Shown here: piece after piece, positions 3,001-64,000 of the stretch
Numbering within the stretch: position 1 is the stretch's first letter
Layout: each line of letters begins with the position of its first letter
From: Cyanophora paradoxa CCMP329
Lineage: Eukaryota > Plantae > Glaucophyta
DNA length: 64,000 nucleotides
Direction of reading: 5' to 3'
NCBI GenBank assembly: GCA_004431415.1
Contig: QPMI01000218.1
Location: forward strand, 1-64,000
Notes under the pieces: model-generated
What the model was told of the DNA's origin: nothing
The model's database searches: none
Seen by the model: only the letters and a program-made list of their open reading frames with translations
Translations under genes and position numbers: made by a program

Positions 3001-3080
3001 TACTTCAAGATCCGCCGCGGCACCAACGAGTGCGGCTTCGAGGACGAGATCTTCGCCGGCACGCCCCTCGTGGGGCCCGC
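1..3080. repeat. Near-identical tandem repeat, period ~1241 bp (cathepsin units including their introns)
   Basis: CTCCGCCGAGCAAATGAGT recurs at 1, 1242 and 2483. Confidence 0.95.
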
Positions 3081-8579: not shown

Positions 8580-8641
8580 GAGGTGCGAACGCAGTATCCG
8601 CTACCCCAGGCCAGTTCGCAACAGGCAGCAGTTCGGCCACG
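8580..8641. promoter_or_regulatory. Putative compact bidirectional promoter/5' region between IleRS and Rieske
   Basis: Divergent ATGs at 8579 (-) and 8642 (+), only 62 bp apart. Confidence 0.45.
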
Positions 8642-13926: not shown

Positions 13927-14240
13927 TGGGTGTCAGCGTGTCACGCATACAGTGGACTCGCCAGGCAAGCAACTCGGCGAGTGTGCGCAGCGAGATGGCT
14001 GGAGCTGGCGCTGAGCGGCAGGTTACGCGCTTTGCTGGAGTGAGGCCGATTCCTGGAGCCATCTCTTAGTGGACGCGAGGTGCGCGTTCTCGGCGGTCGA
14101 TGCCGCGGCAGTTTTTTCACCGGGCGGGTACAGATTCCTACTTCGAGCAGCGGAGCTGAACGCACGCGGCGTCCCAGAGCGATCAGGGGGGCTTGCGTCG
14201 AGCTAGTTGAGGACCCGGATCAGCTGAAAGCGTTCCCGCC

Positions 14241-45600: not shown

Positions 45601-48600
45601 AGACAGCCCGATGCCTGGGGTCTCGTCCTGCAGAATTGGGTAGTACTCTCTTTTGTCTGCATCGAAAAGTTAGATGTACGACATATGCATTAAAATAAAT
45701 GTATGCATTGTTGCGCTACCTGTGAAACAGACTGCGGGCCAGACGAAGGGATCATGATCAGATCTAAATATGACCAATTTACGGCCGCTCGAGCGGAAAA
45801 AGCGCACTCTTCCCGGAAGTCACGCTGACGACTTCCTTCTTGCGGTTCTTCAGCCCCTGTCCGCACGGCCTGCAGCGCGCCAGCGCCTCCTGGGGGTTCT
45901 TCACGAAGGCCAGCAGCGAGTCCGCGAGGCTGCCCGAGACGGCCGAGGCGGCGGCCTGGCTTGTCGGCGTCTTAGCGGCCGGTGTCCAGCTTTCCCCGCT
46001 GGAGAGTGCCGTCGAGGTTCAGGCACGCAGGCACAAAACGGCGGCAACGGAGGCAAACCTGACAGCCGCAGCAAGGGCTTGAATGGTCTAGCCATATGCA
46101 TGAGAGAACGTGGCGAATTGGCTTTGTAAGTTCAGGATCGAACGGTGACGATAAAATGCAGACGCGCACTGCATCGAGCATCGCCTCCGTCATATCGGGA
46201 GGGATGTCGCACGGATCGAACGTTGGGAAGCAGCCGAGAAGCTTATCTTGCCAGGTTGTGTTCAGAGATCTGCGAAAGCCACAGCAATTAATATCATAAA
46301 TGCGCAATTGCAAACGATCTTATTATAAGAAGAGTTCAAAGCAGTATCGATCACTTCGAGACGGGAGTCGATAAGGCCGTCAAGGCATAGGCCCCCTGTA
46401 ACTTGTCTGAGATCGTCGTCGCCGATCCTATCGCGCCACATGCGTGTAGGACCATCGCCTCCAGGGTAGCCGTCTTCCCCAATCGCGGACAGGGGTCTGG
46501 AGTGCGCGCGAGCGCGCGTGACTGCTTGTTTTGCGAAGAATTCGAACGTACGCGCAAAGGTGCGCACCTTCGGTGCTATTCAGCGCTAGAACAGTAGCGG
46601 CTGCTTTCACTCCTGTTATAATAGAGATATCTCTCTGTCTTGTCGATAAGACGCTATCTCCGGCCAGCTCATTGTAACGCCCCATGTATGCCTCGCAAAT
46701 GTCATCGGGGGCTCGGACGATGGCGCTGAGCGGATAATCTGCGCGTAGTATCTCAGAAACATGCAAGCAGAGATAGATCGTTAATGAATTAATTGTTTGC
46801 GCAAGGTGCTCATAGTTACCCGTCGAAGCCCCATTGGCGTCGGTAATCTGCCGATTGCGAGCGAGCAATCACGATCAATGATCATGATATGTACATGATC
46901 ATATATAATAACAATATGTGTCGAATCCGCAAACAATGTTGAAAGTTGAGTCGCGCACCGTAACTACGAGGGACAGCGGTTCCCCCACAGGGAGCGCCAG
47001 ATCGGCAAACGTCGTCGACAGTTGCGAGGGAACGATCATCTCTTTCGCGCCTTCCGGGGCCAGCCGCTGTCGTCCAAAGTCAAGTCAAACGACTGCAAGC
47101 GGAATGCCTTTTCTGCGTGGCATTGTGCGCACTTGCAGGGCGTATTCAAGCGGATAGCCAGACGTGTGGTTACCAGCTGGCTTCCAGTCGGAGCAGGTCA
47201 CAGTGAAGCGGTGGCGGAACACAATCCCCTCGGGGGGCTCGATCTTGCAAACACCCGGCTCGGGCGGCGCGATAAAGCGGACGAGCGTCTCGTCGAACAC
47301 TGCCCGTCGTCGTCAGCGGAGCACGAAAATATAGCCACATCGGCTGTCTGTCGCTTTGCGCGCCTACTTCATTTGCAGGGGCGTTGGGATAGCTCGCGGT
47401 GCAGCGGATAGCGTACAGCTTTCCAGGAACAATCGGAGGGCGTCCGTTTGGGGTAAAAGTTAGGTAGTGCTCGGCGGCAACCAGCCCGGGGCTCATGTAT
47501 CTGCAGGAATGCTGTAAGCAACGAGTGCAATAGATTGAGTGAAAAAGAGAGAAGTACGAAGAAATATTCTGCAGCTCGGGATCGCCGCGAGGAGCCACCC
47601 ACTGGGAAATCGCGATTGCATCATACCCCGGATCGTCGGCCACGCGCGAGCGGCAACGCAAGTAAAGAGTCTCGTCAATCGGAATGCGCGTGATGTTCTT
47701 CACCGGAGAAAGGGTCGTCTGCACGGGCCGCGGCCGTGTCGGACAGAGGCGCGATAGCGATTGCGATTGCGACTGCAAACTAGCTCTTACGTCGATTGCT
47801 ACAACGGGTAGGGCCTTCGCGAGCACTTGAATATCCACTGTGGTATTATCCTCACTCTTGGCACCGTTGGGACACGTTGAGATAACACGGAGATGAATCG
47901 TGTAATTGTTGTTGGGGTCGAATCCAGCTGGGCATTCGTTTTACGATCCAGGAATTAAAAAGAAACAAGTACTATGTAGCTTATGTGCAGTTGTGCGCAT
48001 GGCCGGGTCTTTAACGCACCGATTGGGAGTTTAGCGGCTGACGCGGCAGCTGCCGCAGAGCTCGGCGTCAGCGGGATCCGAGCTTGGGCGCCCGGTCCGA
48101 CTTCGTGAAGAAAAGTCCCGCTGAACGGAGCTCGGAATGCAACGAGACGCCAGTGGTAGAGCGTCGTGGCCGTCAGAGGGCATGATGGGTTATTCGACGG
48201 AGATCCGTCCACGAAGAAAGAGGCCTTACTCCCCACAACTCGATTCCCTGCAATTCAAATGCTTGATCATGATGCACATGTACATGCCTGTAGATGTACA
48301 TGTAGATCTAGCTCGATCTAGAGGTAACGAACCTCCTGCAATAATGGCACGAACGGGAAGATCGCTGATGAGATCGATGTTGCACCGTGTCCAATTGCTC
48401 GCGAAGGAGCCGTCCGGCCTGCTGCTGTTTATGACAAGGTACAGGGTATATATACGTCCAGCATAGAATCCATCTGCATTTCCGCGGGCGAAAGGCAAAG
48501 CGTCAAATGCAGCGCGGAAATATGTATACGTATATACGCGCGGGGAAATTTTTCGTGTCGAGCTTGCGCTGACCTATACCTCCTCCTGCGCCGGTGGGGG

Positions 48601-51600
48601 CAAGAGGGACACTCGGCCCCGTCAGCGGTCCGACGCGTGCAAGAAGGCTTGGATCGCCGTAGGGCTTATCCAGCGGGTACAGGCTCCATGTGTACGTCAA
48701 GTTGGCCAGCTTCGGGTAACCCGGATCGTAGGATCTGCACGTACAATGTTTATATATACGCATGCGCATTCTTTGCTTCGATTTATAATTATCTACAGCG
48801 CGGGCGCACGGAGAGCCGTCGTATGTAAAGGTCTGGTCGTACGGGACGCGCTTCAGGTAGTCTCCGGCAATGATCGCGTACACTTCGATCCGACGTCGAC
48901 GGCGTCAAGCCGAGTACTAGCGGCGCAGACCTGGGCTCATACGTGCAGACCTGGGCTCTGCATGACCTCTATGTCGCAGCGAGTTGCGTTGGTTGCCCAG
49001 CCCAGCATGCCATCAGGCCTGCTGCTGTTTATCATCAAGTAGAGAGAATAACGGCCGCCCGCAAAGAAACCCGCTGCGCATGCGGCAGGAAAAGCCCCGG
49101 CGACCCCGTGAGCTGTGCGCTTTGAAGGCGACGCCTTGCGATAGCCAGATCAAATGCTCACGGGGTCCGCCAGCGCCCGTGGGAGCCAATGTGATATTGG
49201 TTGTCCGGAGCGGCCCGATCTTTGCGATTGGGTTTGGAGAGCCCATTGGAAGATTCAGAGGTTGCAGCTCCCACGAGTACGAGAGAACAGCATCCGGAAA
49301 GTTGCGGTCGAAGGACCTGTCTCTGGCGTCACAATACGGTCCACCACAAGAAGGAAAACTTCTTATCAAGCTTACTCTCGACCCTCGTAAGGGTACGGTG
49401 CATCAAAAGGAACGCGTTTAAGAAAGTCCCCAGAAATGATTGCCACAGCTGTACATGAGAACATTTTGTTATCACACAAAGAGATAGCCGTTAGTCTTTT
49501 AATGGCTCGCACGTGGATCCGTTGCAATAAATTCGATATCGCAGCGGGTGATATTCGTTGCGAATGTCCCATCCGGACGGCTGCTGTTAATGAAGAGGTA
49601 CAGCGTGTATCTCCGGCCGATGTAGAATTGCTCTGCATCGATCTGTCATACAAGCAAGGTGCTAGGTAACACACTCGATGAAGTAAAACTCTCCTCACCC
49701 AGACCTCCGGGTCCAGAACCTTTGGGAAACAGCGTCACGGTTCTCTCCGGCTGTTTGTAAGGGCCTTTCTGCACAATCAAACTCGAATCGCCGTAAGGCG
49801 CATCTAGCGGGTAAAGGCTCCACGTGTACGTCAGGTTTGCGTGCCGCGGGTATCCAGGGTCGTACGACCTGTCATCACGTCAACCCATAAAGAAACTGAC
49901 AAAGGAAAATTTGCACTGCTATCCTACAGCTATGATTTGGGGGCGCGCGCGCGGAGAGGGCGCACGGAGAGCCGTCGTACGTGAAGTTCTCTTTGTAGGG
50001 CACTCGCTTCAGGTAATCGCCCGCGATGATTGCGTAAACTGAGCATGCGCGCATTTGCACAGCGATTGCAGATCTAGAATTCGAAGCTCTGATTTAAATT
50101 TAGTGATCGTGGCTGACCCGGGCTTTGGATGATCTCGATATTACACAGAGTAGTATTGATGGGGTAGAGGGATTTTCCAGCATCGATGGGACGGGTAGAG
50201 TTGATAAGCAGATGCAGAGTGTAGTGTCGCCCGGCAAAAAATCCGGCTGATTATTTTTGAGGAATATTTATTAATGCTGGTCCTTGAACGAATGCTGAAG
50301 GAGAACATTTAAACGCACCAATTCCGTTGCTGCCATCGGGGGCAAGTGCGCCAAACGGCGTCAATGTGATGTTTTTTGGAGACGTCTTTGCCGTAGCGCT
50401 GTAGAGCGACGCGTTTCCCGCGAAGGCCGCGGGTAGGCCGATGGGAACGAGGCTCCAGATATAAGTCAAATTCGCAGAGGGGACTATCGCGTCGTAGGAC
50501 CTGTAGACGTTCCAGCGATAGATAGCAGTTATTGATACATCATGTGATCATGGGTTATATGTGTGGGGTATATGCGCACGGGGATCCATCGTAAACGAAC
50601 GGCGCATCGTACGGCACCCGCTTAGGATTCTCTCCAGCGATAATAGCGACAACAGGGCCATCGTCAAAGAATATATCGCAGCGGGTTTGATTGATCGCTG
50701 TTCTTCCGTCCGGTCGTGTGGTGTTCACGCGCAGATACAGACTGAACCAGCCGGGGACGTAACGAGCTGCGAGAACTCTAAGGAAGCGCCGGGGGACGAA
50801 ATCGCTGACTGTTTAGGGCAAATTACGAAAGAAAACGCACGAATTCCTCCCAGCGCGTAAGGGGTGAGAGTTACATTGTGCAGCGAAGTCCCCGGACCCG
50901 CCCTGAAGAGCCTGGACGCCGCCCCATACGTTGCGTTCAGGGGCTGCAGCTCCCACTCAAAGTAAAGAGTCGTCGTTCCGGGAACAGGGTAGTCCGGATC
51001 GTTCGAGCTGGCGAATGCAATCACGATCTTGAGGAGTTCAACAAGTAACCGTAGTGACATGCACGCACGGAGTGCCGTCGAAAATGTATGGCGACGCAAC
51101 AGGAACGGAGCGGGGATTTGGTCCACCTATAATCGCGAGAACTTGTACATTGCCGTCCGCAACATGCACAACGCAGCGCGTCTGGTTCACAGCCCATCCA
51201 TCACCGTAAGGGCGTGAAGAGTTGATTTTCAAGTGCAGCCAATAAGAGTTGTCAGCGAAGAATCCAGCTGCAGATGTGCCTTGAATCAGCCGCACGCGCT
51301 TGTTTGAAAACTATTTTACAACATAGCTGCCACGCACGAATCCCGCCAGCTCCAAACGGCGCGATCGTTATGGAGCTCGAGAGCTGCGCGCCGGAGGCCC
51401 AGATGACCTTGAGGGACCCGAAAGGCTCTCCTACAGGCTGTAGCTCCCACTCGTATCTAATCACAGCGGCAGCAGCGGCAGTGGAGTACGCAGAATCGTA
51501 AGACCTGCGCGCGTACGGACAGGCCGTGGCCGGGTGCCATGCCAGGTCCCGTCAGCTGCAGACTCGAGAGGAGGGCGGATAAATATCGAGAGCCAAGTCC

Positions 51601-54030
51601 GCACGGAGCGCCCTCGTATGTGTACGCCGTGTCGTGCGGCACGCGTTTGGTGGCGTCACCGTCAATAATAGCGAAGACTGCGGCGAGTTATTATCAGTCG
51701 CTCGGGTAGCTTCAGCGCCCCACAGATACATTGCAATTGCATGAGCAGGCTGCCAGGCTGGCGCATGCGCACCTCCCGTCAGGGGGCCCACGACGAACGT
51801 AATGTTGATTGCGCTGAAAGACTGCTTATTGTACGGAAGAGAGGTAACGTTAAGGTGGAATGTGTAGTTCTTTGTGTGCACGAAGCCCGGAATTCCACCC
51901 GCGGCCTCGGGCGTTAGAGTCACGTTCGGAGTGGAGAAAGGGCCGAGCTCCGTGATGAGGTTCGGGGAGGTGTAGGGTTCGCCAAAGGGCACAAGCCGCC
52001 AAGTGTACAGCAGCTGGCCGTCCGAATCTGCGGGATGCGATTGCGATTTCAGCGAATCTACGGAAATGGCGCTCAATTCGGCTCAAACAACGATACCCAG
52101 GTCATAGCTGGGAGAAGCATCAATGACCGCCGTGCTCGTTCGGAGTCTATTGACAATAGGATTGCCTGGCGAAAGCGGTAAGCTGTAGAGATGCGCCCGT
52201 GGACGGTTATAGAGTCGGCAAATTCGTGTCATTACCGCACCATTGCTGATTACAGCGTAGAGCGGACCTGCTCAAGCACATTCGATTCATGATCAGCTAC
52301 GAAATCACGAAACGGAAACTGGCCATGGAAGTACAGAACGCACAGTCCACTTTCGCAGGTGACAGGAAGTCTTTCGCGAAGTCCACCCAGCCTCCAAATC
52401 TGAGAACAAAAGCTCGGTAAGTTCTATTGAATCAATTGAATCTGCGATCGTCGGTGAACAGCTGCAGAGGGAGTGCAAGCCTGTTTTTCGGACGTAGAAG
52501 GAGCCGGTGGTGCCGGCAAGAGGCGAACGTGATGTTATATGCGCTACTCGTGAGATCGAGGCTCGTCTCGCTGGATCCGATGTTCTCAATTGTCCCGACA
52601 ACTGCTTCATGGTCCTCGAGCGATGTAGGACCGATCAATTTCGGTTTTCTAAGAGGGTCTTGCTTGAGCTACGAAGACGCATGCGTTTAATTAATCCATG
52701 GTCGCGATATCAATCGAGGGCATATCGAAGTTTCGCGAACCCTTATGACAAGTGCTGAGTAGCCGTAAGGACTGCCGGCTGGTGCGTTCCACGTGGCAAT
52801 GAGGGATGAGCTCACCGTCAGATCGGCAACTGATATCATGTTTGAGATCCGCGCTAGACACTCGTAGAAAGAAGCGGAACCTTTGTACTGGAAAGGATCC
52901 ACGTAGTTTCGGACGTCGCTTCTGTTGAAAAGAAAGGAGAACTGGCCGCTGAATGCGTCGCCTGGAATCATGCGGCCGGCGTTGCGATCCGAGAGGTTGA
53001 AGAAAAGAGACATGCGGTCTGCGTCTATGGAATTTGTTCCAATTGTATAGTCCGTGCCGTGACTGTCAAAGTTGTCTTCCGGAGGATAGAGATAAAAGAA
53101 CGGCTTGGCTCTGCACAGTGCGCGCGCGTCAATCACATACTTTTGGTCATCACGCACACGCGATGAACAGACCTCAAGCCAACTCTTGCCAGATTGTGGT
53201 CGGCGGCAAGTCCCAAATAGCACCGCTCTGACCGAGCTCAATCACGACCATGTGCGATCGCGAATCAGACTGAACGAGAAACCGCACACCGAGAATCTGA
53301 CCCCAGGAGCCTACGCCTGCAATCGTCCCACTCCCGTCCGCAAAGCCCTCGGCTTGGCGCTCGATCTCGTGGTTGACGGCCATATAATCTGCATTGCCTT
53401 CTATATCATGACCGTTCCTCGAAGGCCCCTGAGAATGCCATGCAGCCGGTCAAACGTTAACAGGCGCACATTTCAGATCTGTTCGGGAGGGCCACAAACC
53501 CAGTACGCCGCGCCGGGTTCTCCTGCCCTTGTTCCCCGCTGGTGATCGTTTCCTGGTAGAACGTTGCGGATGTAGTGTGGGAGAAGAACAGTAGTGGCCC
53601 CGGTATTCCTTCCGGAACCTCGTGAGCAGCCGATCGCGACAAGTGGAGCGAGCACCAATTGCAATTACGATGTTTCAATTCGCGTTCTCACCGGATGATG
53701 AGATTGACCCAAATCGTAATGGGGCCGCCAGAAACGTCCTTGAAAAAATACGAGTGGGTCACGGTGACCGAAGGGCTCGCCAGCGCCGCTGTGTGTTCTG
53801 CGGGAATCGCGCTCGTAAGCGTTTTAATTATAAGGCTGGAGCGCATGCAAAAACGAAAACAAATTCAGATTTGCGTGCCCACAAGAATGCCGTCGGCCTC
53901 CGTGGAAGTTTTCGTGATCGATCCGCTGAAGTAGGGCGCCGAGTTGGGAACAGTATTTATGGCCCCGGATGTCGGATCGACGGACTGCAGAGCTCGCTTC
54001 CAGGAGAACCCCACCAATTGCGCGCCCTCT
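27661..54030 (-). CDS. Giant single-pass receptor-like protein: REJ/PKD-like repeats + GAIN/GPS + TM + about 49 FN3-like domains; 5' end interrupted by the virus-like element
   Basis: Ectodomain repeats AIIAGDYLKRVPY..YDGSP|SYDP..LTYTWSL and the REJ motif PPEPGVCKIEPPEGIVFRHRFTVTCSDW..YPLEY. GPS-like LLFWNATRLSWDRCG...GRCTHL|TTFTV. TM LIAGITAGVGAAAVLAAAAYVY (~44645-44710). FN3-like APSNLQLT..TLSWSPP..YQIVKDG..TVSDL. Stop at 27661-27663. Confidence 0.8.
28790..44597 (-). repeat. Intragenic tandem array: 12 units of ~1.37 kb, each with 2 introns and 4 FN3-like domains
   Basis: The first intron/exon junction recurs at about 28975, 30348, 31722, 33100, 34471, 35846, 37215, 38581, 39955, 41317, 42689 and 44059. 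Confidence 0.95.
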
Positions 54031-54054
54031 TCTTTCCTTCCCCACTACCACATT

Positions 54055-54304
54055 CAGTAAGCCCATTATCCATTTTCGAATTTCTCAGTAAGGCTCAGTA
54101 ACAAACTATAAAATAGCACTGTATTTTTCAAACATCTAACCTCTCCTTACTGAAACCAATCACGAAACCCTTCCATTCTTCATTTTTCTAATTCCTTACC
54201 ATTCCCAGTAAGCCCTAAAACCCTCTCTCGATATCTCAGTAAGGACAGTAAGACCCATATTTTTACGAAATGTTCCCAATCGTTTCCAAACTGTTTTCAG
54301 TTAC
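54055..54304. repeat. Clustered CAGTAAG motifs at the element's left terminus
   Basis: Copies at 54055, 54086, 54096 (CAGTAAC), 54146 (inverted), 54206, 54237 and 54246, plus a degenerate copy at 54298. Confidence 0.75.
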
Positions 54305-54403
54305 CCAAATTGAAAAATCAAGGTGACCCCCACCGATAGCGTAAATCAACATATGAAATGCGTTTATCCCCACTTAAAGATTTCCCGCTATATAGCTATA
54401 AAG

Positions 54404-54727
54404 ATGCCGAGCAATCAACTCCCACTACCCAAAAGTAAGCAATGCACTATCTGCAAAGTAGATAGACCTGCATCGTGTTTTGGTTTGCGTAAATTAAAAA
54501 CTGGTAATGTCGCATTGAATCCAAGATGCATCGAGTGCAACCGCGACTATCACCTTGACCTGTATCACAAAGTCTTAAAAACGCGTCCGAAAATCGAAGT
54601 ACAATCGAAAATATGCCCCGATTGCAAGATTGAGAAGCCTGCAAGCGAGTATAATAAAAAACAAAGCACGAAGGATGGTCTCTACTACAAATGCCGACAG
54701 TGTTATAGTGAGACTCGGACGAGCTAA
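54404..54727 (+). CDS. Double Zn-ribbon protein (two CxxC...CxxC modules)
   Basis: KQCTICKVDRPASCF..RCIECN and KICPDCKIEKPASEY..DGLYYKCRQCY. Best ATG context is at 54404. Confidence 0.75.
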   Translation: MPSNQLPLPKSKQCTICKVDRPASCFGLRKLKTGNVALNPRCIECNRDYHLDLYHKVLKTRPKIEVQSKICPDCKIEKPASEYNKKQSTKDGLYYKCRQCYSETRTS

Positions 54728-54991
54728 TTTATGATTTTAAAATGAGATTTGTATTTTTTAAAGCAAGTTTGTGCATGAGCAAGCATGCCGAAAATGCCCA
54801 CCTGCACAAACTTGCGAGATCAAGGTAAGCCCCATCGACAAAGTACGACGATAGACCACGTTAAAATAAACTCGCGCCCCGCCCACTATGCAAGATACAT
54901 GCCTTTCTTATGCATGATCTATGAAAAATAACAATAAACCCAGTCGTCAGACAAGCTGCCTTGGCTGCGCCTCTCTCATTCTTCGAATTCT

Positions 54992-55255
54992 TTACATAGG
55001 AGCACTCACAGTAATTTCGCTTGCCTTTCGAACAGTCCCCCTTGCAAACGCTTGCTCTACAATCGCTTCCTTTGTGAGTGGAATCGGAATTCCAGCGGCA
55101 ATACACGATTTAACTTCTTTGTCCACAATCTCATCAATCGCAATTCTCGCCCTATTATGAGCCGCATTATCAATATATTCCTGAACAGAGAAGGCACAGT
55201 ATTCCATTCCCAGTTTTTCAGTATCAGTTAAGACAACTTCATAGACATTCGACAT
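54992..55255 (-). CDS. 87-aa hypothetical protein, last gene of the fibre cassette
   Basis: Clean ATG-to-TAA ORF co-oriented with the fibre genes; helical acidic composition (SVQEYIDNAAHNRARIAIDEIV). Confidence 0.75.
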   Translation of the reverse strand: MSNVYEVVLTDTEKLGMEYCAFSVQEYIDNAAHNRARIAIDEIVDKEVKSCIAAGIPIPLTKEAIVEQAFARGTVRKASEITVSAPM

Positions 55256-55282
55256 TGTTCTATCTAAGAGTGAGATTAAATT

Positions 55283-56272
55283 TTAAGCCAAAGCAGAAAT
55301 CAAGTAACCTTTAATTTGCAGGCTCCTACTATAATAGCCTCTCGCGTTTAATACTCGACTAAATTGTAGGTAGTCTGTTGTCGAGTTTATTTGCACAAGA
55401 AATGTATTAGATATCACTATAAATTGGTCTCCGGAGGTCACCAAATCATTATAAAGGTAGAAGCCATCATTGGCTAAACTGGCTCCATTTTGCAATAAGG
55501 AAATTTGTAATGCACCGGCAGTTGATGTTACTTTTGTGGATAATGAAATAGAAATAAGATACACCCCTTTTACAGGTGGGTTGAACTTTCCACTACTTGC
55601 ATTGAATGTGTTCCCAATATTATTCATTACAGCCAGAGAATCGCCAATATCTGTGCTAATAATACCAGTTCTTGTGACGGTATCTAGGGAATCTCCTCTT
55701 ACATTGAATGCAACAAAATTGTCTTGATAAAGATACCCAGAATTTATTTTCAGACCACTTGCACTTACAGTAGCCATTGTTGTTCCATTTCGCTTTATTA
55801 ATATGTCCGAGTTAGCCCCACTATCAACAGTAGTCGTTTTAACTGTCCCAAAAGATCCAGCGGTAAGGCTTCCAGTAATTGTCGCATTTCCAGTTATTGT
55901 TGCACTCCCATTCACACTCAGTCCAGTCCCGATCCAGGCACCACCACTAACTACTTGAAAAGCCGCTGATTTCCTATCAGCCGGATTAAAAGCTGTTTTA
56001 TAATCCGCTTGACCTTCATATAGATTATCTTTGGTGATTAGATCCCCTGTTTTTGCGGGTCGATTCGATACGATCAGTTCAGTAGCTTTAACGAGTCCAC
56101 CAGCCTTGTCGGCTCTGAGTTCTTTGACTCTAAGAATGGAGGTCTCATTGAAAGAATCGGATTTTGCTGTTTCAGTCGAAGGGAATGACTCGTTTAGATC
56201 ATAAACAGTGTGTTGCACGTTATGGACAGCACTGGCTGATAAGGAAAACACAGGCGTGAACACAGTCGACAT
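55283..56272 (-). CDS. Fibre-like protein with a C-terminal C1q/TNF-like head
   Basis: Shaft repeats VNGSATITGNATITGSLTAGS, followed by the C1q-like VAFNVRG..NNIGNTFNASSGKFNPPVKGVYLISISL. Confidence 0.75.
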   Translation of the reverse strand: MSTVFTPVFSLSASAVHNVQHTVYDLNESFPSTETAKSDSFNETSILRVKELRADKAGGLVKATELIVSNRPAKTGDLITKDNLYEGQADYKTAFNPADRKSAAFQVVSGGAWIGTGLSVNGSATITGNATITGSLTAGSFGTVKTTTVDSGANSDILIKRNGTTMATVSASGLKINSGYLYQDNFVAFNVRGDSLDTVTRTGIISTDIGDSLAVMNNIGNTFNASSGKFNPPVKGVYLISISLSTKVTSTAGALQISLLQNGASLANDGFYLYNDLVTSGDQFIVISNTFLVQINSTTDYLQFSRVLNARGYYSRSLQIKGYLISALA

Positions 56273-56327
56273 CTTTTGATTGTTCTTTATTATTACGTGA
56301 GAATATTATTATTATTACGTGAGAATA

Positions 56328-59300
56328 TTATGCTACCATCTTCCCTGTTGCTATATAACTCATTTGATAGTGGAAAAGTCCAATGCTTTCATTGAATGCA
56401 TGTTCTGCCGAAATTGTTGCATGAATAGTAAATGTTGTTGTTGTGGAACTTGTGACACCATATACCAATACATATGAACCACCATTATATCCTTGTATCA
56501 GATTGAGAACCACTTCTGGGGCTTCCGCAAATGCTTTCGGGAATGTGACAACCTGTGGAAATCCCCAATGACCCGGACCTGTGATTGTCAAAGATTTTGA
56601 GAATTTCCCTGTTTGTATATACTGGTCTTTATTGACACGCTGTTCTGAAACAAGTTTTGCGATCTTTGTATTATCTGTTTCATCCATTGCATAATATGCT
56701 CTTGCGTAAGCATTTCCCCGACATAATAACGTTTTATCGTATATATTTGCGGAATTGTGGAAAAACCATTGTTCTAAATAAAGTGGCGCATTCGGTTGGT
56801 AAATTTGACCGGATCCCACATACATGGTGTTATTGGCTGTAATTGTATTCGCTACAAATGGGTCTAAGGTTGGGAAATCCGTGATTTCCGATTTTGTGTG
56901 AGTATGGGCGAAGTCTGTTATATTTGCCTTTGTGTGACTATGTGCGAAATCTGTGATATCTGCTTTAAAATGAGAGTGAGGACCGACAGTCGTAGAAGCT
57001 GTTGGCTTCCCGTATATATTATTCCAATGGAGGAAACCACTGTGTGACGATATAGCGGGGTTTTTGCTCCAACCAACAGTAATCGGACCTGGAAGATAAA
57101 TTCTTCCTATTTGTCCTTGAACACCAACTTTAACAAGTCCTTCACAATTTATTGCAACAAACTGTTTAAAATCTCTCACAGGATTAATTCCAGGAGCATA
57201 GGCATTTACTCGTAAACGAGTATAAGTATTGTTTGATGGTTCAATTCCAACAACATCAAAGTATCTACTGTCATACTGACACGTATAATAGATATAACAT
57301 GATTTCATGTCTGTTGGAACAGTCCAATACATCTTACAGCTACTACAATCATCATCACCATCAATCCATGTGTTTGCCCAAGTGCTTGTGTCACCTACAA
57401 GTGGTTGCCCAAAATAATCTCTCCAATCTCCTGTGCGGTCTGTGGAAATACCACTTGTAGCGTCAAAATCAGTTGGTGAAGTGTATGTTGGTGTATTTAT
57501 CAGATCATCATAGTTTCCAGTTGTTGCCACAGTCGCAAATGTCGGGAAGTCTGTAATTTGAGACTTTGTGTGGGTATGGGCAAAATCTGTTATTTCTGAC
57601 TTTGTGTGAGTGTGTGAAAAATCTGTAATCTCTGACTTTGTGTGAGTGTGTGGATCAGGTGGGAAGGTTAATGGTCGAACATTGTGAACATTGGGTAATT
57701 CAATGCGACTAATTGGAGTGTTTGGATCTAATACATATTCAGCACCAAGGTGGACAACAGGAAATGTTTGATCATTCGGAGTAGTAACAAAGAAATTAGA
57801 AGCATGCACATCACCTGCAATTGTTCCACCTGTTAGTGGTAAATAATCATGATCGTGTGAATCAGGTGGATAGGTCGATGGGGGATTGACGATATGCTCC
57901 CAGAAATGCTTGTGAACATTGGGTAATTCAAGACGACTAAATGGGGTGTTTGGATCTAAAACATATTCAGCACCAAGGTGGACAACAGGGAATGACTGAT
58001 CATTCGGAGTGTCCACAAAGAAATTCGGAGCATGCACATCACCTGTGAGAGTCCCGCCTGTAAGGGGTAAATAATTCCCAAGAGCCGACGTTAATTCGGT
58101 ATCTGTAACATAATCTTCAAGAATTGCTGCAAGTTCTGTATCATCTACATAGTTTTTGCTTTCGAGGTAATCATCTGTTACCACACCTGAAAGGGTTGTA
58201 TTGTGTAAGTTTTTCGCCGCCATTCTCTGATTGACTTCTAAGGCGCCTCCTGTTGTTGTTTTAATCCATGCAATCTCGCATTTTCCGTGATCATCTGTGG
58301 GTTGTCCCACAACAGGAAGATAGTTTACAACTTTCTCCCTTGTGAAAACTATCTTAGGTCTTGCTCCATCATATGCACTTTGATCTGTTACATTTACTTG
58401 TATTGCTGCTGAAAAATCCGCTTCTTGTCCTATTTCTCCTGGGTGATAATTCGTAACATAGATACTGGGGAAAGTATCATTTACGCCTACATTGAAATCG
58501 CCACTATAAACTCCATTTACGATTGGATCCCGTGGTAATCTTACAGCAAGAGTTCCCACCATCGGTGTGCCTGTTTCACCTGTAAACGACCCATTGAGAT
58601 TTACGTAATGATCATTCAAAAATAGCCTTTCAGGTGTATTAATCGATTGGTAAAGTGTGACCCCATTAAAAACGTTTCCGATTGCATTCAATTGCGCAAA
58701 AACTGGCTGCTCATCTATTTCATCCCATGGGTGCCTGTGGTTACTATTAGTAATCTCTGAGTAATCATGTGTGTGTTTTCCCGGTGGGAAGGTGGATGGG
58801 GGATTTGTGATATGCTCCCATAAATGAGTGTGGGCGAAATCTGTTATTTGATCTTTTGTGTGAGTGTGGGCAAAATCTGTAATATCTGCTTTTGTGTGTT
58901 TTTGCTTTGCTAACCAATCTAAAACAACATTCGATGTCGGGTGATTTGGTAGGTTTGCTTCAATCTTCACAGTGAGATAATCGACTATTACATTACTTCC
59001 ATTAATATTACTTGCCCATAGGTTACTGCTGTAAATGTTACTGGCATAAATGTTACTGGCATAAATGTTACTTGTAACTGTAAGGTTTGATGAAATTGTA
59101 AGATTAGATGAAATAACACCACCTTTGAGAGACAAGTAATCATGAGTGTGTGGATCAGGTGGGAAGGTTAATGGTCGATTGGTGATATGCTCCCACAAAT
59201 GCTCGTGAGAACTGGGTGGATAGGTTAATGGGGCATTGGTGATATGTTCCCACAAATGCTTGTGAGAATTGGGTAGTTCGATTCGACTAATTGGGGTGTT

Positions 59301-59783
59301 GTCGCCCAATATAAATTCGGCACCTGTATGCACGACCGGATTTCTTTGGATATACATATTGGATGCACCTATTACAGGTGCTATTATGGGCACATCCGAA
59401 TTAACGAGATTGCAAGTGATGGAGAAAATGGTTTTAGGGGCGAATAGATTGCAATCAAAGGTCACAGTAGCTGGATCAATAGTAGGATCGACATTTGAAC
59501 AGATCTGAAACATCCACCCTCCCACACAGTTGCAATTTAGATTTCGAAAGGCTGTTCCTGCCATTGCATCCACATAGCCTATCCCATTTGCTATGTCATA
59601 TATGTGACCAAACTCGTAACCAAAAATGTCATTCCACAGGTTGGAAGCCATAGCTCCCATCACATACCCTTTTAGATCTACTATCAGGTCATTGGATTCA
59701 CTGGGTATATTGGCGTGGGTTATATAAAAATTATTATCCAATACAGCATTCTTTATTGTCGTTTCTACTATGGGTTCAGTCAT
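56328..59783 (-). CDS. 1151-aa tail-fibre-like protein with HxH repeats and a C-terminal gp53/H-lectin-like tip
   Basis: Repeats HTHTKSEITDF, HLWEHITNPP, YLPLTGGTLTG, FATVATTGNYDDLINTP and SNIYA pentamers. C-terminus IQTGK..VVTFPKAFAEAPEVVL..TTTTFTI. Confidence 0.8.
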   Translation of the reverse strand: MTEPIVETTIKNAVLDNNFYITHANIPSESNDLIVDLKGYVMGAMASNLWNDIFGYEFGHIYDIANGIGYVDAMAGTAFRNLNCNCVGGWMFQICSNVDPTIDPATVTFDCNLFAPKTIFSITCNLVNSDVPIIAPVIGASNMYIQRNPVVHTGAEFILGDNTPISRIELPNSHKHLWEHITNAPLTYPPSSHEHLWEHITNRPLTFPPDPHTHDYLSLKGGVISSNLTISSNLTVTSNIYASNIYASNIYSSNLWASNINGSNVIVDYLTVKIEANLPNHPTSNVVLDWLAKQKHTKADITDFAHTHTKDQITDFAHTHLWEHITNPPSTFPPGKHTHDYSEITNSNHRHPWDEIDEQPVFAQLNAIGNVFNGVTLYQSINTPERLFLNDHYVNLNGSFTGETGTPMVGTLAVRLPRDPIVNGVYSGDFNVGVNDTFPSIYVTNYHPGEIGQEADFSAAIQVNVTDQSAYDGARPKIVFTREKVVNYLPVVGQPTDDHGKCEIAWIKTTTGGALEVNQRMAAKNLHNTTLSGVVTDDYLESKNYVDDTELAAILEDYVTDTELTSALGNYLPLTGGTLTGDVHAPNFFVDTPNDQSFPVVHLGAEYVLDPNTPFSRLELPNVHKHFWEHIVNPPSTYPPDSHDHDYLPLTGGTIAGDVHASNFFVTTPNDQTFPVVHLGAEYVLDPNTPISRIELPNVHNVRPLTFPPDPHTHTKSEITDFSHTHTKSEITDFAHTHTKSQITDFPTFATVATTGNYDDLINTPTYTSPTDFDATSGISTDRTGDWRDYFGQPLVGDTSTWANTWIDGDDDCSSCKMYWTVPTDMKSCYIYYTCQYDSRYFDVVGIEPSNNTYTRLRVNAYAPGINPVRDFKQFVAINCEGLVKVGVQGQIGRIYLPGPITVGWSKNPAISSHSGFLHWNNIYGKPTASTTVGPHSHFKADITDFAHSHTKANITDFAHTHTKSEITDFPTLDPFVANTITANNTMYVGSGQIYQPNAPLYLEQWFFHNSANIYDKTLLCRGNAYARAYYAMDETDNTKIAKLVSEQRVNKDQYIQTGKFSKSLTITGPGHWGFPQVVTFPKAFAEAPEVVLNLIQGYNGGSYVLVYGVTSSTTTTFTIHATISAEHAFNESIGLFHYQMSYIATGKMVA

Positions 59784-59820
59784 TATACTCTATTATGGAA
59801 TACTACAAAAATTAAGGTTG

Positions 59821-62800
59821 TTACATAACGTTTGGAACATGTTCATATATTCTCCCTTCTCGTTGTGCAATTTCCGCCATAAAGTCTGCATTATCTTTTA
59901 TTATTGATTCAGCCATTTGTTGTGCTCGTGATTTTTTGGGTGCTGCCCTACTTGCTGGTGGTTGATCAGTTCTCACAACACTAAGACCATGCCCCTCGGC
60001 TGACCTCACCTCTAACCCCACATCTCCTTCGGCTGTTTGGGTCACATTAAGCTCTGGTGTTGAGTATTTATTACCTGCACCTGCAATGGTTCTGTCTATG
60101 CATGCAAAACATAAAGCTCGGAATTTGTATGCAAGCACAAGTCCTCCAACACCGAGAATCGGCAAGAGAATGAGAAGCACTAACGTCCCGGGATCCATTC
60201 CTGGCGATCCGACTGGATTTGTAGGATTACTGGGATTATTAGGTGTCGTGTTTGGATCTGGATCAGTTGTAGGGGGATCTTTTGAATCGGGATCTGGGTT
60301 AGGCTGGTTCGGATTGGGATCGTTTGGTGGCGGCTCTGTCGACCCTGCTAATGATGTCGGCGCTGTGTATGCATTTGCAAACACGATGGGAGCCGTCGCT
60401 GGATTTCCTGTGGAGGATCCTGAGATTGCACCATAGGTATCTGCGAGATATTTGTATAATTCCTGTGTTACAGGCGGATTGCTCACAGATCGACACACCC
60501 AAATATTGCATGTGGTATCATAGACCGTGTCCCTGATAAAGGGCGGTAGAGCCGTCCCACTGAATGACTCAAAGAGTCCATTTCGCGATAGCAATCGATG
60601 CCCTGCATCACAATTTCCACCCTCGAAATATTTGGTAGCCGAAATTGCACCTTGCACATAAATATTGCATGTTGAGTGCAATCCAATGTTATCAAGGTTA
60701 GGAGTGTATCTGTCATCGAGCCGGACAGTGCACACCCATGGGGAAGCGGTTTTAATATATTTCTTATCGCCCACTTCGATTACATCTGTATTTGGGTGGC
60801 TGTCAAGCTGAGTCCAAACAGCATCATATCTGAAAGTGTAATAAACTAAGAGACCATCTGTGGACGATGTGAAAGCAAAGAAGGTCATAAAGTCCGTGGA
60901 TCCAAAGAAGTCAGCATTGGTCGATGTTAGGGTGACTCTGGGATAGCTCATATCCACAGTCTCAGAAGGATATGGAATATAAGAGGTGTAATTGCGATTG
61001 AACAGGTAATAGTGAAATCCATCTGAGACATTCGAGTGAGTGGGCAAGGTGACTGTTAAGGTCTTACTGCGATTTTCAAACGTGTTTTGTATGACAATAT
61101 TGCAAGTATTAATATATCGAGAATCGAAAAAGTAATTATTTGTGACACTGTTATTGATCAGAGTCGCATTGGTTCCATTAAATACGAAATTCTGCCCATT
61201 TATTCTCGTAGTATGGAGGTCGGTCACATCGAGAGGATACCTTATTTTCAAGCGGTCTTCGGGGTCAAATCGCGGAATAGTTCCTGTTGCCTTCCAATTG
61301 ATAGTAAAGGGAGGAGAAAGGGACACAGGTGGGATCGCTGAAAGATTAAATTTCGCAAAATACAACCCAACAGGATATGCTGTAAGAGCATATGTCACTG
61401 TTGCATTTCCGACAAGTGTGAAGCCGGTGGTTGTTATGTTAGTTGCAACAAATGGGGAGTAGCCGGCTGGTGCATTGTTAATAGAGGTGGTCGACCCATT
61501 ATTGATCACATACAAATTCGTGTCAGTTATTTCAATAGTTGGAGGGGAAACAAATGGTGTCTCAAATGTGAAATTAAAATTCGCTGGAACCGCTGCAAGG
61601 TATCTATATGTTGTTGCTGATATCTCGGATGCCTGGAATACTTTGCTTCCCCTCTGCACTACATTACTGGTGTCTTTCACATTGTGATAGGATATACTGG
61701 GAGTCGGGGAGAGCACCAACGAAATAGCATCTGGTAAATCAGACTTTGTAATATACAGCTCTTTAAGATACTCCTTTTTGAAAGGGGCGGTCAGATCTCC
61801 AATAGTAGCCGATGACCCTGCGACCACAATATTACAGGTGTTTGCATTCAAAGTATAAACTGTGTTCCACCTCAAAGAATTCGCCCCAAGATCGAAATTC
61901 TGTGAGAAGGGCACGATATTGCTACCTTGTAAATCTCGGTAAACCTTCACTCTGGGTTTGCTATCGAATTCAGGGGTGATATAATTGATGTTAAGAGTGA
62001 AACTAATAGTAGCTTCGGAACTCAATGAGTTGTTTCGGATGATAAGTAAATTGTATGTCTCGTTAATGACAAACGAAACCTGAAACCCTGTGGAGGTGAC
62101 ATTTTGGATAAATGCTTTATTAGATTCATTATTGTTATAGATAGGATTATAATAAGTAGTGTGATCCACCAATGAAACAGTGGGTATATTCGTCTCGAAA
62201 CCTGTGACACCCAACTGATCCCAAGTGAATGTATATGTAGGTTTGCCTACGTAAGCGACATAGACCCCATTTGCGAGCTGCTGAGGGTATCCCTCGACAG
62301 TGTAGGTCTCAGTTTGCGAAACCGAGCGGGAAAGGTTACTATTATAGTCGGTGTAGCTGATCAGTGCATTATCATTGGTAAGAATCTGATTAGGTCGGAG
62401 TGAGTGATTTAATGGAAGGATTAAATTGGAGGCAAACATGGAAACTCCATGCACCTCTGACCATCTCAGATTCGAGAGACCAATTCGGTATGCGTTATCA
62501 ATAGAAGGGTAAATGTTCCTTTTTGAGAGAATATGAGCCAGAGAAATTGCCAGCGCTCCATCTGCTGCAAACAGAGCATTAATTTCCGACTGCAAAGCGG
62601 CTATTTCGGTGGTGTGGGTCGTGAGGGTTCCATCCTGGCTGGAATCTTTGGTGTTCTTGCTCCTCTCGAACTCCAAAAACGCCTTTACGATGTCCTTGCC
62701 TAAAAGATCGTTTATATTGTCTCTGGTAATGTAAACATGATCTGTTCTCAGTGCCTGTTTCTCTGTGGTAAAAGCCGGAATCTCCTCTGCAAATGATATA

Positions 62801-63543
62801 GTCGTTTTATCAAGTGCTAAGGATCTCACATTCGGAGCATTGGCGCCAATTATATCCACAACGTTCCCATTTTCGACAATTTCTAAGGTCGGTTTCGCGG
62901 GGTCTAATGTGAAAACACCCTCTGTTATCTGGGGAACCGATTCGCTCTTCTGAATCACAAAGGATTCGATGTTTAGGTTACAGGTTGCGACATTGGTGGC
63001 GAAAAACGACTCGGAGTTGAGCGAGTTTACATTTAGGGTATCCGTAGTGATGTTACTTGCTGTAATGTTACTCGTCGTAAGATTACCTGCTGAGAGATCA
63101 TGGACGACCTCTACCTTTGTTTTCCGTGTGGATACTCCCGCTATAAGTGTGCTATTATCCACGATTCTCATAGCTGCATTTTGGAAACCGCTCTCATCTT
63201 GAATGAAGAAGTTTAAGCGACCTCTATCGAATGCTTTTGGGATGTTCCTACGATTATATCGCACCGTTTTCGGTAGCTGGCGGGTTGCCTGAATGCTGGC
63301 GACTCTGTTTCGTTCGTTATCATCAAGTAAAAAGTCGATTCCAAGTTTATGATCCCCTTTCTCGACGTTCATTAACTGCAAAGCTGCGGGTCTGCTCGGT
63401 GTCCCACTGACTGGATCTTCGCGGTCTGCATTGTAGTTTATTCTCAGAGACCCGCGAATTTCAGTGTTTACCTGATCAGTGTCCTCTATCTGAGTGGTCG
63501 AATTAATAACTCGTGCATCTGGTCGCGGATTCAGGAACGACAT
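59821..63543 (-). CDS. ~1240-aa fibre/lectin-like protein with a Pro-rich stalk and C-terminal transmembrane helix
   Basis: ATG at 63543 (MSFLNPRP). Coiled coil EIAALQSEINALF; two IxP....xGxxxLRW motifs; FTFETPFVSPPTI..NITTTGFT; PPPNDPNPNQPNPDP; TM LVLLILLPILGVGGLVLAY followed by KFR. Confidence 0.8.
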   Translation of the reverse strand: MSFLNPRPDARVINSTTQIEDTDQVNTEIRGSLRINYNADREDPVSGTPSRPAALQLMNVEKGDHKLGIDFLLDDNERNRVASIQATRQLPKTVRYNRRNIPKAFDRGRLNFFIQDESGFQNAAMRIVDNSTLIAGVSTRKTKVEVVHDLSAGNLTTSNITASNITTDTLNVNSLNSESFFATNVATCNLNIESFVIQKSESVPQITEGVFTLDPAKPTLEIVENGNVVDIIGANAPNVRSLALDKTTISFAEEIPAFTTEKQALRTDHVYITRDNINDLLGKDIVKAFLEFERSKNTKDSSQDGTLTTHTTEIAALQSEINALFAADGALAISLAHILSKRNIYPSIDNAYRIGLSNLRWSEVHGVSMFASNLILPLNHSLRPNQILTNDNALISYTDYNSNLSRSVSQTETYTVEGYPQQLANGVYVAYVGKPTYTFTWDQLGVTGFETNIPTVSLVDHTTYYNPIYNNNESNKAFIQNVTSTGFQVSFVINETYNLLIIRNNSLSSEATISFTLNINYITPEFDSKPRVKVYRDLQGSNIVPFSQNFDLGANSLRWNTVYTLNANTCNIVVAGSSATIGDLTAPFKKEYLKELYITKSDLPDAISLVLSPTPSISYHNVKDTSNVVQRGSKVFQASEISATTYRYLAAVPANFNFTFETPFVSPPTIEITDTNLYVINNGSTTSINNAPAGYSPFVATNITTTGFTLVGNATVTYALTAYPVGLYFAKFNLSAIPPVSLSPPFTINWKATGTIPRFDPEDRLKIRYPLDVTDLHTTRINGQNFVFNGTNATLINNSVTNNYFFDSRYINTCNIVIQNTFENRSKTLTVTLPTHSNVSDGFHYYLFNRNYTSYIPYPSETVDMSYPRVTLTSTNADFFGSTDFMTFFAFTSSTDGLLVYYTFRYDAVWTQLDSHPNTDVIEVGDKKYIKTASPWVCTVRLDDRYTPNLDNIGLHSTCNIYVQGAISATKYFEGGNCDAGHRLLSRNGLFESFSGTALPPFIRDTVYDTTCNIWVCRSVSNPPVTQELYKYLADTYGAISGSSTGNPATAPIVFANAYTAPTSLAGSTEPPPNDPNPNQPNPDPDSKDPPTTDPDPNTTPNNPSNPTNPVGSPGMDPGTLVLLILLPILGVGGLVLAYKFRALCFACIDRTIAGAGNKYSTPELNVTQTAEGDVGLEVRSAEGHGLSVVRTDQPPASRAAPKKSRAQQMAESIIKDNADFMAEIAQREGRIYEHVPNVM

Positions 63544-63586
63544 CCTCTTTATAAACAAAGAAGATATATAAGAAGTATATAAGATA

Positions 63587-64000
63587 ATGAAGACCGTTCT
63601 CGCTTTGAGTGGAGGGGGGTCGCGCGGAATAATCGAGGCTGCTATACTGGCACAGATTGAAGCCCAAACCGGTAAACGAATCCAACAGCTATTCGACTGC
63701 TTTGCGGGAACATCCACAGGTGGATTAATCGCGCTCCTATTGAATATCAAGGGAACCGATGGCGCCCCTAAATATACTGCCACTGATATTCTGGCGCTCT
63801 ACAAAGCGAAACTACCGCTGATTTTCGCGAATCCACGAGTGCTTACATCGATTGTACAGCGCCCAAAGTACGAAGCCACTAACTTAGAAGCTGTGGCTCT
63901 GGATCTCTGCGGCTCGGCGACTATGGCGGATCTCTATAAACCCACCATCGTGACTGCGTTCGACACGGTTCAAATGTCCCCCGTTTTTATTTCAAGCAAC
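63587..64000 (+). CDS. Patatin-like phospholipase (3' end beyond window; absent from the ORF track)
   Basis: MKTVLALSGGGSRGIIEAAIL (oxyanion GGGxR) and LFDCFAGTSTGGLIA (GxSxG nucleophile). Confidence 0.92.
   Translation, partial: MKTVLALSGGGSRGIIEAAILAQIEAQTGKRIQQLFDCFAGTSTGGLIALLLNIKGTDGAPKYTATDILALYKAKLPLIFANPRVLTSIVQRPKYEATNLEAVALDLCGSATMADLYKPTIVTAFDTVQMSPVFISSN

What the first reader, a model, noticed from the sequence alone, without database searches (positions are those of the whole stretch)
54000..64000. Endogenous virus-like element inserted into an exon of the giant receptor gene
Seen: the host frame EGAQLVGFSWKRALQSVDPTSGAINTV runs up to ~54030. It then meets an in-frame stop, with no typical acceptor and no signal peptide, just where composition turns AT-rich and intronless. 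Known: protist genomes carry integrated Polinton-like viruses, virophages and giant-virus fragments, often with fibres and lipases. Inference: a recent integration (all ORFs intact) that disrupts the host gene, with its 5' part on the far side of the element.
Basis: partly seen in the sequence, partly recalled or inferred. Interest (0 to 1): 0.8.

Follow-up and report, generated by a model that had tools for sequence, protein, structure and literature searches.

The report
Multicopy algal provirus end splits gene
This is one end of a virus-like element that occurs at many places in an alga's genome; this copy sits inside a very large surface-protein gene, which it likely disables, and it is likely one of the Polinton-like viruses already catalogued in the glaucophyte alga Cyanophora.

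Summary
The element is real, but the junction is misplaced. Bases 53992-64000 are AT-rich (GC 0.42 vs 0.54), 92% coding and intronless: two phage-type fibres, a C1q-tipped protein, a phage tail-associated small protein, a zinc-ribbon ORF and a patatin. Public contigs show a single-copy host piece running without differences into the element (3 of 3 DNA-type runs). Other contigs with unrelated flanks join at the same base, 53992. So 'EGAQLVGFSWKR' and its stop are element end, not host. Only TCTGCAG (minus strand) precedes the host frame; it fits an exon or a splice acceptor about equally, so 'into an exon' is unproven. Capsid, ATPase, integrase, second end and target duplication lie beyond the window and were not tested. 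The host is likely Cyanophora paradoxa (earlier scan notes, unchecked), where 366 capsid loci and a tail-repeat/H-lectin fibre are published (PMC10120064, PMC12220804). The scan noted sibling elements on other DNA of this genome. Extra: the C1q tip is at single-copy depth between multicopy flanks, suggesting tips are swapped between copies. New member of a known kind.

The parts
53992..64000 (.). One end of a multicopy endogenous virus-like element; runs off the window
   Evidence: GC 0.418, 92% coding; depth step and shared start at 53992
53992..54349 (+). Non-coding terminal region, likely the terminal inverted repeat (inner limit not known); begins GCTCGC; holds 7 CAGTAAG-like motifs and a duplicated ~80-nt block; no stable hairpin
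   Evidence: highest depth, unrelated flanks; motifs at 54054, 54085, 54095, 54205, 54236, 54245, 54297; 7 of 7 folds no better than shuffles, z 0.38 to 1.27
53986..53991 (+). Predicted 6-bp target-site duplication TGCAGA (5 bp would be GCAGA); untested
   Evidence: sequence next to the terminus; 6-bp duplications are typical of rve integrases (PMC12220804 section 10)
53985..53991 (-). Seven host bases TCTGCAG next to the element: either in-frame codons (x-Leu-Gln) or the 3' end of an intron
   Evidence: acceptor score 4.94, reached by 13 of 45 model acceptors and 15 of 395 other AGs; model posterior 0.59 for acceptor; raw counts 3 in-frame exonic vs 1 phase-0 acceptor for the 6-mer
54353..54727 (+). 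Two CxxC..CxxC zinc ribbons like the N-terminus of HNH/endonuclease VII proteins, without a nuclease domain (start 54353 or 54404); likely absent from some sibling copies
   Evidence: PHROGs 5558, 1035, 2255, 2633, E 6e-12 to 2e-8; joints 54343>54786 and 54339>54834
54992..55255 (-). 87-aa protein related to small proteins in tail-fibre regions of T4-like cyanophage-type contigs
   Evidence: 23 of 52 candidate stretches in viral contigs, 45-52% identity; neighbours read by eye in 5 of those loci; no Pfam or PHROG hit
55283..56272 (-). 329-aa fibre-like protein with C-terminal C1q domain; the tip (55201-55861) is at single-copy depth between multicopy flanks
   Evidence: Pfam C1q E 5e-5, above cut-off, 1e-5 on the domain; depth 39.9/63.9/21.4 vs host 42.3/100.5/20.9, joint 55256>55872 in X1 and X2
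56328..59783 (-). 1151-aa fibre: three blocks of phage-tail-like HTH..DITDF repeats and a C-terminal H-lectin-like domain
   Evidence: PHROG tail proteins E 8e-17; PTR E 0.48, 0.0033, 0.0059, all below cut-off; H_lectin E 5e-4, below cut-off; 89 phage records, minor tail proteins
59821..63543 (-). 1240-aa fibre-like protein: shaft repeat shared with tail-spike-type proteins, weak H-lectin-like domain, Pro/Asn-rich linker and one predicted transmembrane helix near residue 1118
   Evidence: 35 hits, all best-matching query residues ~306-393; 10 of 10 top hits scanned carry weak End_tail_spike matches; H_lectin E 0.004; hydrophobicity
63587..64000 (+). Patatin-like phospholipase, N-terminal 138 aa, cut by the window end; GGG oxyanion and GTSTG nucleophile motifs intact
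   Evidence: Pfam Patatin E 3e-12; alignment with 7 homologues; PDB patatin 1oxw E 2e-11
44560..53991 (-). Interrupted host gene, 3' part: about 2009 codons in 46 exons, repeated extracellular units, REJ domain, one transmembrane helix; continues into an FN3 array
   Evidence: self-trained parse without stops, 45 introns of 44-129 nt; REJ E 1e-7 at 47136-47297; fn3 at 43722-44744; 0 differences over 52000-54020 in 3 of 3 DNA-type runs

Best explanation
Bases 53992-64000 are the terminal 10 kb of one copy of a multicopy, AT-rich, intronless element carrying phage-type fibre genes and a patatin, likely a Polinton-like virus, inserted in a giant REJ/FN3 surface-protein gene that it likely knocks out. 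Shown: the terminus at 53992, its use at several unrelated genomic sites, the link to single-copy host DNA, and the gene content in the window. Inferred from published relatives: capsid, packaging ATPase, replicase and an rve-type integrase lie beyond base 64000; the integrase would cut the target with a 5-6 bp stagger and leave TGCAGA (or GCAGA) duplicated, so the gene's 5' part should resume after a second end that mirrors GCTCGC. The fibres would bind host-surface sugars and the patatin would breach the membrane on entry; in the chromosome the copy is likely silenced by CpG methylation. Whether the cut fell in an exon (about 55%) or 7 bases before an exon (about 45%), the gene would be broken: model introns are 44-129 nt, and a 6-bp duplication plus the element's first G would rebuild a TCTGCAG acceptor on the upstream side that would splice into the element.
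For: Depth step and unrelated flanks at 53991/53992 in 2 of 2 runs; only 2 of 8 such X7 contigs share the base before, as chance predicts. One 9041-nt host unitig runs 29 bases into the terminus with 0 differences in X1, X2, X7; a copy-specific internal piece has host-like depth. Gene content. Published: 366 capsid loci in C. paradoxa (PMC10120064 Tables S1, S4); of 156 glaucophyte elements 139 have an A32 ATPase, 85 rve, 0 tyrosine recombinase, 89 lipases (PMC12220804 Table S6, columns counted by hand); a PTR-PTR-H_lectin fibre in a C. paradoxa PLV and discoidin domains, sometimes fused to patatin, in Rhizaria and glaucophyte PLVs (section 13). Virus-derived genes are methylation-enriched in C. 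paradoxa (PMC12344493 passages); element CpG o/e 0.81 vs 1.22 in the host gene.
Against: No defining viral gene is in the window. The PTR and H_lectin matches are below Pfam cut-offs. The bridging unitig has 29, not 31, bases on the element side, two short of the tool's bar. Host identity rests on unchecked scan notes and a sub-threshold MraY signature (19.2 vs 20.1 bits). The terminus starts GC, not the AG recalled for canonical Polintons. Only 2 of 156 glaucophyte elements matched Bulzu's polinton capsid model, and their capsids match NCLDV capsids best, so the family label is loose. No relative with genomic context was found.
Confidence: 0.8

Rival explanations
1. Same insertion, but the element is another small eukaryotic DNA virus (mriyavirus/NCLDV-dwarf-like or virophage) or a capsid-less satellite that borrows capsid and integrase from siblings.
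For: Fibres and lipases are not family-specific; C. paradoxa capsids in PMC10120064 Table S2 match ascovirus, iridovirus and prasinophyte-virus capsids; earlier notes report mriyavirus-like and capsid-less elements in this genome (unchecked).
Against: The fibre architecture and lipase match what PMC12220804 reports for glaucophyte PLVs; no virophage capsid among its 156 glaucophyte elements.
Confidence: 0.12
2. The element end is real but marks a rearrangement: recombination between two copies or an old deletion removed or moved the gene's 5' part, so it does not resume on the far side.
For: Many divergent copies with mosaic blocks are substrates for ectopic recombination; the far side cannot be seen.
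Against: The downstream gene still parses without stops over 2009 codons with repeat-conserved intron positions, which fits a simple, not very old insertion; a free parse can dodge stops, so this is weak.
Confidence: 0.07
3. Assembly chimera of the algal contig with a phage or bacterial contig.
For: Most database hits of the ORFs are phage tail proteins or bacterial patatins.
Against: Short-read unitigs from 3 of 3 DNA-type runs cross the junction without differences; the same terminus joins other flanks; a copy-specific internal piece has host-like depth. No prokaryote genome gave a relative of the 1151-aa protein (0 of 21 candidate stretches).
Confidence: 0.01

Closest known systems
Endogenous Polinton-like viruses of Cyanophora paradoxa (PMC10120064 Tables S1, S2, S4; PMC12220804 Table S6, section 13, Fig. 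S6 label)
   Same: Many copies per genome, low GC, intronless, fibre with phage-tail repeats and C-terminal H-lectin-like domain, phospholipase gene; likely the same host.
   Different: Core genes not visible here. I could not tell whether this copy is among the 156 or 366 listed. The C1q-tipped protein, the membrane-anchored 1240-aa protein, the GCTCGC terminus and insertion into a host gene did not appear in the parts I read.
Polintons/Mavericks (class Polintoviricetes; pPolB + rve integrase)
   Same: Sharp terminus used at unrelated sites; long non-coding terminal region; predicted 5-6 bp duplication.
   Different: Terminus begins GC rather than AG (AG recalled, from no call); pPolB, rve and protease untested.
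Phage tail-fibre modules (PHROG 988 tail proteins; Arthrobacter and Streptomyces phage minor tail proteins; cyanophage-type 87-aa tail-region protein)
   Same: Repeat shafts, lectin-like or C1q tips, and the small tail-region partner gene.
   Different: Matches cover at most 15% of the 1151-aa protein at about 27-43% identity in the rows shown; here the module is in a eukaryotic chromosome.
Polycystin-1/REJ-type cell-surface proteins (for the host gene)
   Same: Very large extracellular repeat region, REJ domain, membrane helix.
   Different: One helix only in my model, followed by an 11.4-unit FN3 array; no GPS or PKD-channel domain was detected in the 8 exon stretches scanned.

Membership tests
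Polinton-like virus (PLV) | Double-jelly-roll major capsid protein of PLV type | not testable with these tools
   Not in 53992-64000; the rest lies outside the window and no genome is held
Polinton-like virus (PLV) | A32-like packaging ATPase and minor capsid (penton) | not testable with these tools
   None of the 6 ORFs matches; rest outside the window
Polinton-like virus (PLV) | Integrase (rve or tyrosine recombinase) and replicase (pPolB or primase-helicase) | not testable with these tools
   Outside the window; unrelated flanks argue only weakly against a site-specific recombinase
Polinton-like virus (PLV) | Terminal inverted repeats of hundreds of bases | tested here: inconclusive
   One sharp end at 53992 with about 360 non-coding, high-depth bases; the second end is not visible; no second copy of the terminal motif in the window
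Polinton-like virus (PLV) | 5-6 bp target-site duplication (rve-type elements) | not testable with these tools
   Predicted TGCAGA or GCAGA; needs the far flank
Polinton-like virus (PLV) | Integrated, multicopy, GC-shifted, intronless, gene-dense block | tested here: met
Polinton-like virus (PLV) | Accessory phage-like fibres and lipase (common, not exclusive) | tested here: met
   compared with PMC12220804 section 13
Polinton/Maverick (Polintoviricetes) | 5'-AG terminus (recalled) | tested here: not met
   Terminus is GCTCGC; 6 of 8 X7 contigs with other flanks do not share the A at 53991
Virophage or mriyavirus | Family-specific capsid, protease or HUH/VLTF genes | not testable with these tools
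   No such gene among the 6 ORFs; rest outside the window
Hairpin-ended PLV noted elsewhere in this genome (e1-10595593) | Terminal ~95-nt palindrome | tested here: not met
   First 100 and 150 bases, both strands, fold no better than shuffles (z 0.85 to 1.27); standard DNA parameters do not model sheared G.A pairs

The most novel reading that the evidence does not exclude
The many endogenous copies act as a cassette library: fibre tips (here a copy-specific C1q domain) and a zinc-ribbon cassette are swapped between otherwise shared frames, diversifying what the reactivated virus binds; and the 1240-aa fibre, with its own membrane anchor, is displayed on the host surface or on a virion membrane, while this copy knocks out a giant host surface receptor that could itself be a virus entry point.
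Probability: 0.15. Interest if true: 0.65.

Novelty: new member of a known kind. Interest (0 to 1): 0.3.

Why it matters
The class of element is known and likely catalogued in this host, so the finding is not a new system. It has modest value. It fixes the terminal sequence of the family (GCTCGC), which lets all ends and target duplications be mapped. It is a concrete case of a Polinton-like virus interrupting a host gene; one full-text search for that combination returned only an unrelated paper. It gives a natural knock-out of a giant surface protein. It hints that fibre tips differ between sibling copies, which would make host-range diversification testable within one genome.

Tried and rejected
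Relatives with context: viral contigs gave none for the patatin (0 of 39 candidate stretches), the 1151-aa N-terminus (0 of 6), the 1240-aa N-terminus (0 of 13) or the C1q protein (0 of 15); prokaryote genomes none (0 of 21). The patatin homologue P0002 led to 4 loci; the 3 whose ORFs I listed look like large tailed-phage contigs by eye. The terminal pattern matched 0 viral contigs and 50 metagenome stretches; none of the 50 showed any further nucleotide or protein likeness to the element, so they are taken as chance. Protein searches for the 1240-aa N-terminal 450 residues and for one host exon among longer proteins found nothing, so no paralogue could settle exon versus intron. Exact look-ups of 7 ORF versions found 0 (one zinc-ribbon version started one codon early). 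A single-sequence model of the 1151-aa C-terminal 190 residues failed (pLDDT 31), so no fold search was run. Both Atlas searches stayed under 0.9: leads only. No tRNA, no Rfam match in 50000-64000. No RNA holder listed; X20, an RNA guess, had no cover of the host part: no evidence on expression. No contig showing an empty site was listed in X2 or X7, but contigs drop rare variants and the tables were cut. Only 4 of 24 listed runs were laid; they may be one strain and may include the source of the assembly. Terminal hairpin rejected. Searches of earlier findings by sequence and by near place were empty. Literature searches. File 2 of PMC10120064 was cut when stored, I read 1 of 46 parts of the PMC12220804 spreadsheet plus term searches, and I saw no bioRxiv supplements, so a listing of this very copy could have been missed.
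Full report
Observation. GC falls from 0.52-0.57 per kb in 45001-54000 to 0.40-0.47 in 54001-64000. The block holds six stop-free, intronless ORFs covering 92% of it. No whole genome is held, so everything beyond 64000 is out of reach.

Where the junction lies. Twenty of 24 listed public runs of one coded organism hold the stretch 51000-59000 or part of it, 19 of them half or more of its words. I laid four of them. In X1, X2 and X7 the host side is one 9041-nt unitig with no differences over 52000-54020 at flat depth (42.3, 100.5, 20.9). From 54010 on, summed depth is about 600-18,500 in most bins, from hundreds of short, divergent contigs (in X1: 292 at 99% or more, 231 at 95-99, 195 at 90-95, 90 below 90). 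The tool warns that summed depth is no copy number; I read it only as 'many copies'. A close look (X2 and X7) puts the step at 53992: depth is 100.5 and 20.9 up to 53985 and 2417 and 406 in 53993-53999. Contigs with other flanks start to match at 53991 (2 in each run) or 53992 (2 in X2, 6 in X7), with low agreement among their loose ends (0.48-0.63), so the flanks differ. One more variant aligns from 54009 but carries GCTCGC 17 bases before, in the same register. The element therefore begins GCTCGC at 53992. EGAQLVGFSWKR and the stop behind it are element sequence, about 40 bases inside. The bridging unitig has 29 bases on the element side, two short of the tool's 31-base bar, but it ends where a repeat must break a 31-mer graph (own reasoning). 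A copy-specific piece at 55201-55861 has depth 39.9, 63.9 and 21.4, close to the host's in X1 and X7 and lower in X2, which fits an insertion present in most cells. No empty-site contig was listed, but the tables are cut and the runs may be one strain.

The element's genes. 54353-54727 (+): two zinc ribbons matching the N-termini of HNH and endonuclease VII families, without a nuclease domain; joints 54343>54786 and 54339>54834 suggest siblings that lack it (sides of 23-32 letters, so weak). 54992-55255 (-): 87 aa, 45-52% identical to proteins in 23 viral contigs; in the five loci I listed, the neighbours look like T4-like cyanophage tail-fibre regions (by eye). 55283-56272 (-): 329 aa with a C1q domain. 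56328-59783 (-): 1151 aa with PHROG tail-protein matches, three blocks of phage-tail-like repeats (PTR E 0.48, 0.0033, 0.0059, below cut-off) and a C-terminal H-lectin-like domain (E 5e-4, below cut-off). 59821-63543 (-): 1240 aa; its only relatives match a shaft repeat near residues 306-393 (35 proteins; 10 of 10 scanned carry weak tail-spike matches), with a weak H-lectin-like domain and one predicted membrane helix near residue 1118. 63587-64000 (+): a patatin with intact GGG and GTSTG motifs. The terminal 360 bases carry seven CAGTAAG-like motifs and a duplicated block and form no stable hairpin. CpG observed/expected is 0.81 in the element (0.61 in the 1151-aa gene, TpG 1.41) against 1.22 in the host gene.

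The host gene. A self-trained parse from 53984 to 44560 gives 2009 codons without a stop and 45 introns of 44-129 nt. Intron positions recur in the repeated units, which supports the middle part; calls near 45000-46300 and 52100-53700 are uncertain, and I chose the start myself. It has a REJ domain, one membrane helix near residue 1960 and then an FN3 array. The first Met is residue 123, so the true 5' part is missing from the window.

Exon or intron. Seven host bases, TCTGCAG on the minus strand, separate the element from the frame SVDPTSG. TGCAG ends 10 of 45 model introns. The site scores 4.94, reached by 13 of 45 model acceptors and 15 of 395 other AGs. An independent-base model gives 0.59 for acceptor; raw counts point the other way (6-mer: 3 in-frame in exons, 1 at a phase-0 acceptor; 7-mer: once each, the acceptor case not phase 0). 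I put it at about 55% exon, 45% intron. A search for a paralogue that could decide it found nothing.

Mechanism. Shown: a fixed terminus at several unrelated sites, linkage to single-copy host DNA, fibre and lipase genes. Inferred: a Polinton-like virus whose rve-type integrase made a 5-6 bp duplication, with core genes and the gene's 5' part beyond the window; entry by sugar-binding fibres and membrane breach by the patatin, as proposed in PMC12220804; silencing by methylation; loss of the host gene in either placement, since introns here are short and a 6-bp duplication plus the element's first G would rebuild an acceptor upstream.

What is known. Earlier scan notes name this genome as Cyanophora paradoxa (unchecked); my own support is only a sub-threshold MraY signature and the match below. 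PMC10120064 (passages; supplement rows) lists 366 capsid loci in two clusters (272 and 94) for that species, with best matches to NCLDV capsids. PMC12220804 (abstract, passages, sections 6, 10 and the first part of 13, supplement searches and part 33 of file 1) counts 156 glaucophyte elements: 139 with A32 ATPase, 85 with rve, 0 with tyrosine recombinase, 49 with pPolB, 89 with lipases, only 2 matching its polinton capsid model (columns counted by hand); it reports a PTR-PTR-H_lectin fibre in a C. paradoxa PLV. PMC12344493 (passages) reports CpG methylation of repeats and virus-derived genes in that species. bioRxiv 10.64898/2026.06.19.733378 and 10.64898/2026.10.13.758929 (passages) do not mention glaucophytes; the second documents module swapping for replicases and has no occurrence of 'fiber'. 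So the element works like, and is likely one of, these endogenous PLVs, but no defining gene could be tested, and its terminus fails the recalled AG rule of canonical Polintons.

Against my reading. No core gene seen; sub-threshold domain matches; no relative with context in viral, metagenome or prokaryote collections; a failed model; host identity not tested directly; age not measurable.

Novel angle. The C1q tip sits at single-copy depth at the 85% likeness setting while both flanks are multicopy, and another single-copy-depth contig joins 55256 to 55872 with other sequence between (X1, X2). This suggests different tips in sibling copies; fast divergence below 85% would look the same.

Verdict. 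Real feature, junction corrected to 53991/53992, exonic placement unproven, new member of a known kind; interest 0.3.

Noticed in passing
window 28807-44512, minus strand: Tandem array of 11.4 units of about 1375 bp, 97% alike, encoding FN3 domains, placed after the host protein's membrane helix; the reading frame switches often between units (assembly errors or decay, not tested).
   Followed up: partly
window 1-3140, plus strand: About three near-identical repeats, spaced about 1240 bp, of a papain-family (cathepsin B-like) gene (Peptidase_C1 E 2e-45 for 885-2024).
   Followed up: no
window 14924-15100: MraY signature 1 just under cut-off (19.2 vs 20.1 bits): a peptidoglycan-synthesis gene in a nuclear context, as expected for an alga with a walled plastid.
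   Followed up: partly
window 11386-12531 and 17497-18735, plus strand: PP2C phosphatase and an XLF (non-homologous end joining) N-terminal domain.
   Followed up: no
window about 4300-8600, minus strand: Peptide motifs that look like an isoleucyl-tRNA synthetase gene in very GC-rich, intron-rich DNA (recalled from motifs, not tested).
   Followed up: no
window 56287-56331: Exact 22-bp tandem duplication between the 1151-aa and 329-aa genes, overlapping the stop of the former.
   Followed up: no
window 54054-54304: Seven CAGTAAG-like motifs in two similar blocks 150 bases apart near the terminus, plus one inverted copy at 54153; possible binding sites for integrase or replication proteins.
   Followed up: partly
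window 59821-60200, minus strand: The 1240-aa fibre-like protein ends with a Pro/Asn-rich linker, a membrane helix and a 100-residue tail, unusual for a virion fibre.
   Followed up: no
window 63544-63586: Only 43 AT-rich bases, with an 11-bp repeat, separate the divergent starts of the 1240-aa gene and the patatin: a candidate bidirectional promoter.
   Followed up: no
L001:5100-6002, L002:9992-10894, L003:13-915: A 301-aa patatin gene inside what looks like the head-gene cluster of large tailed phages (read by eye).
   Followed up: no
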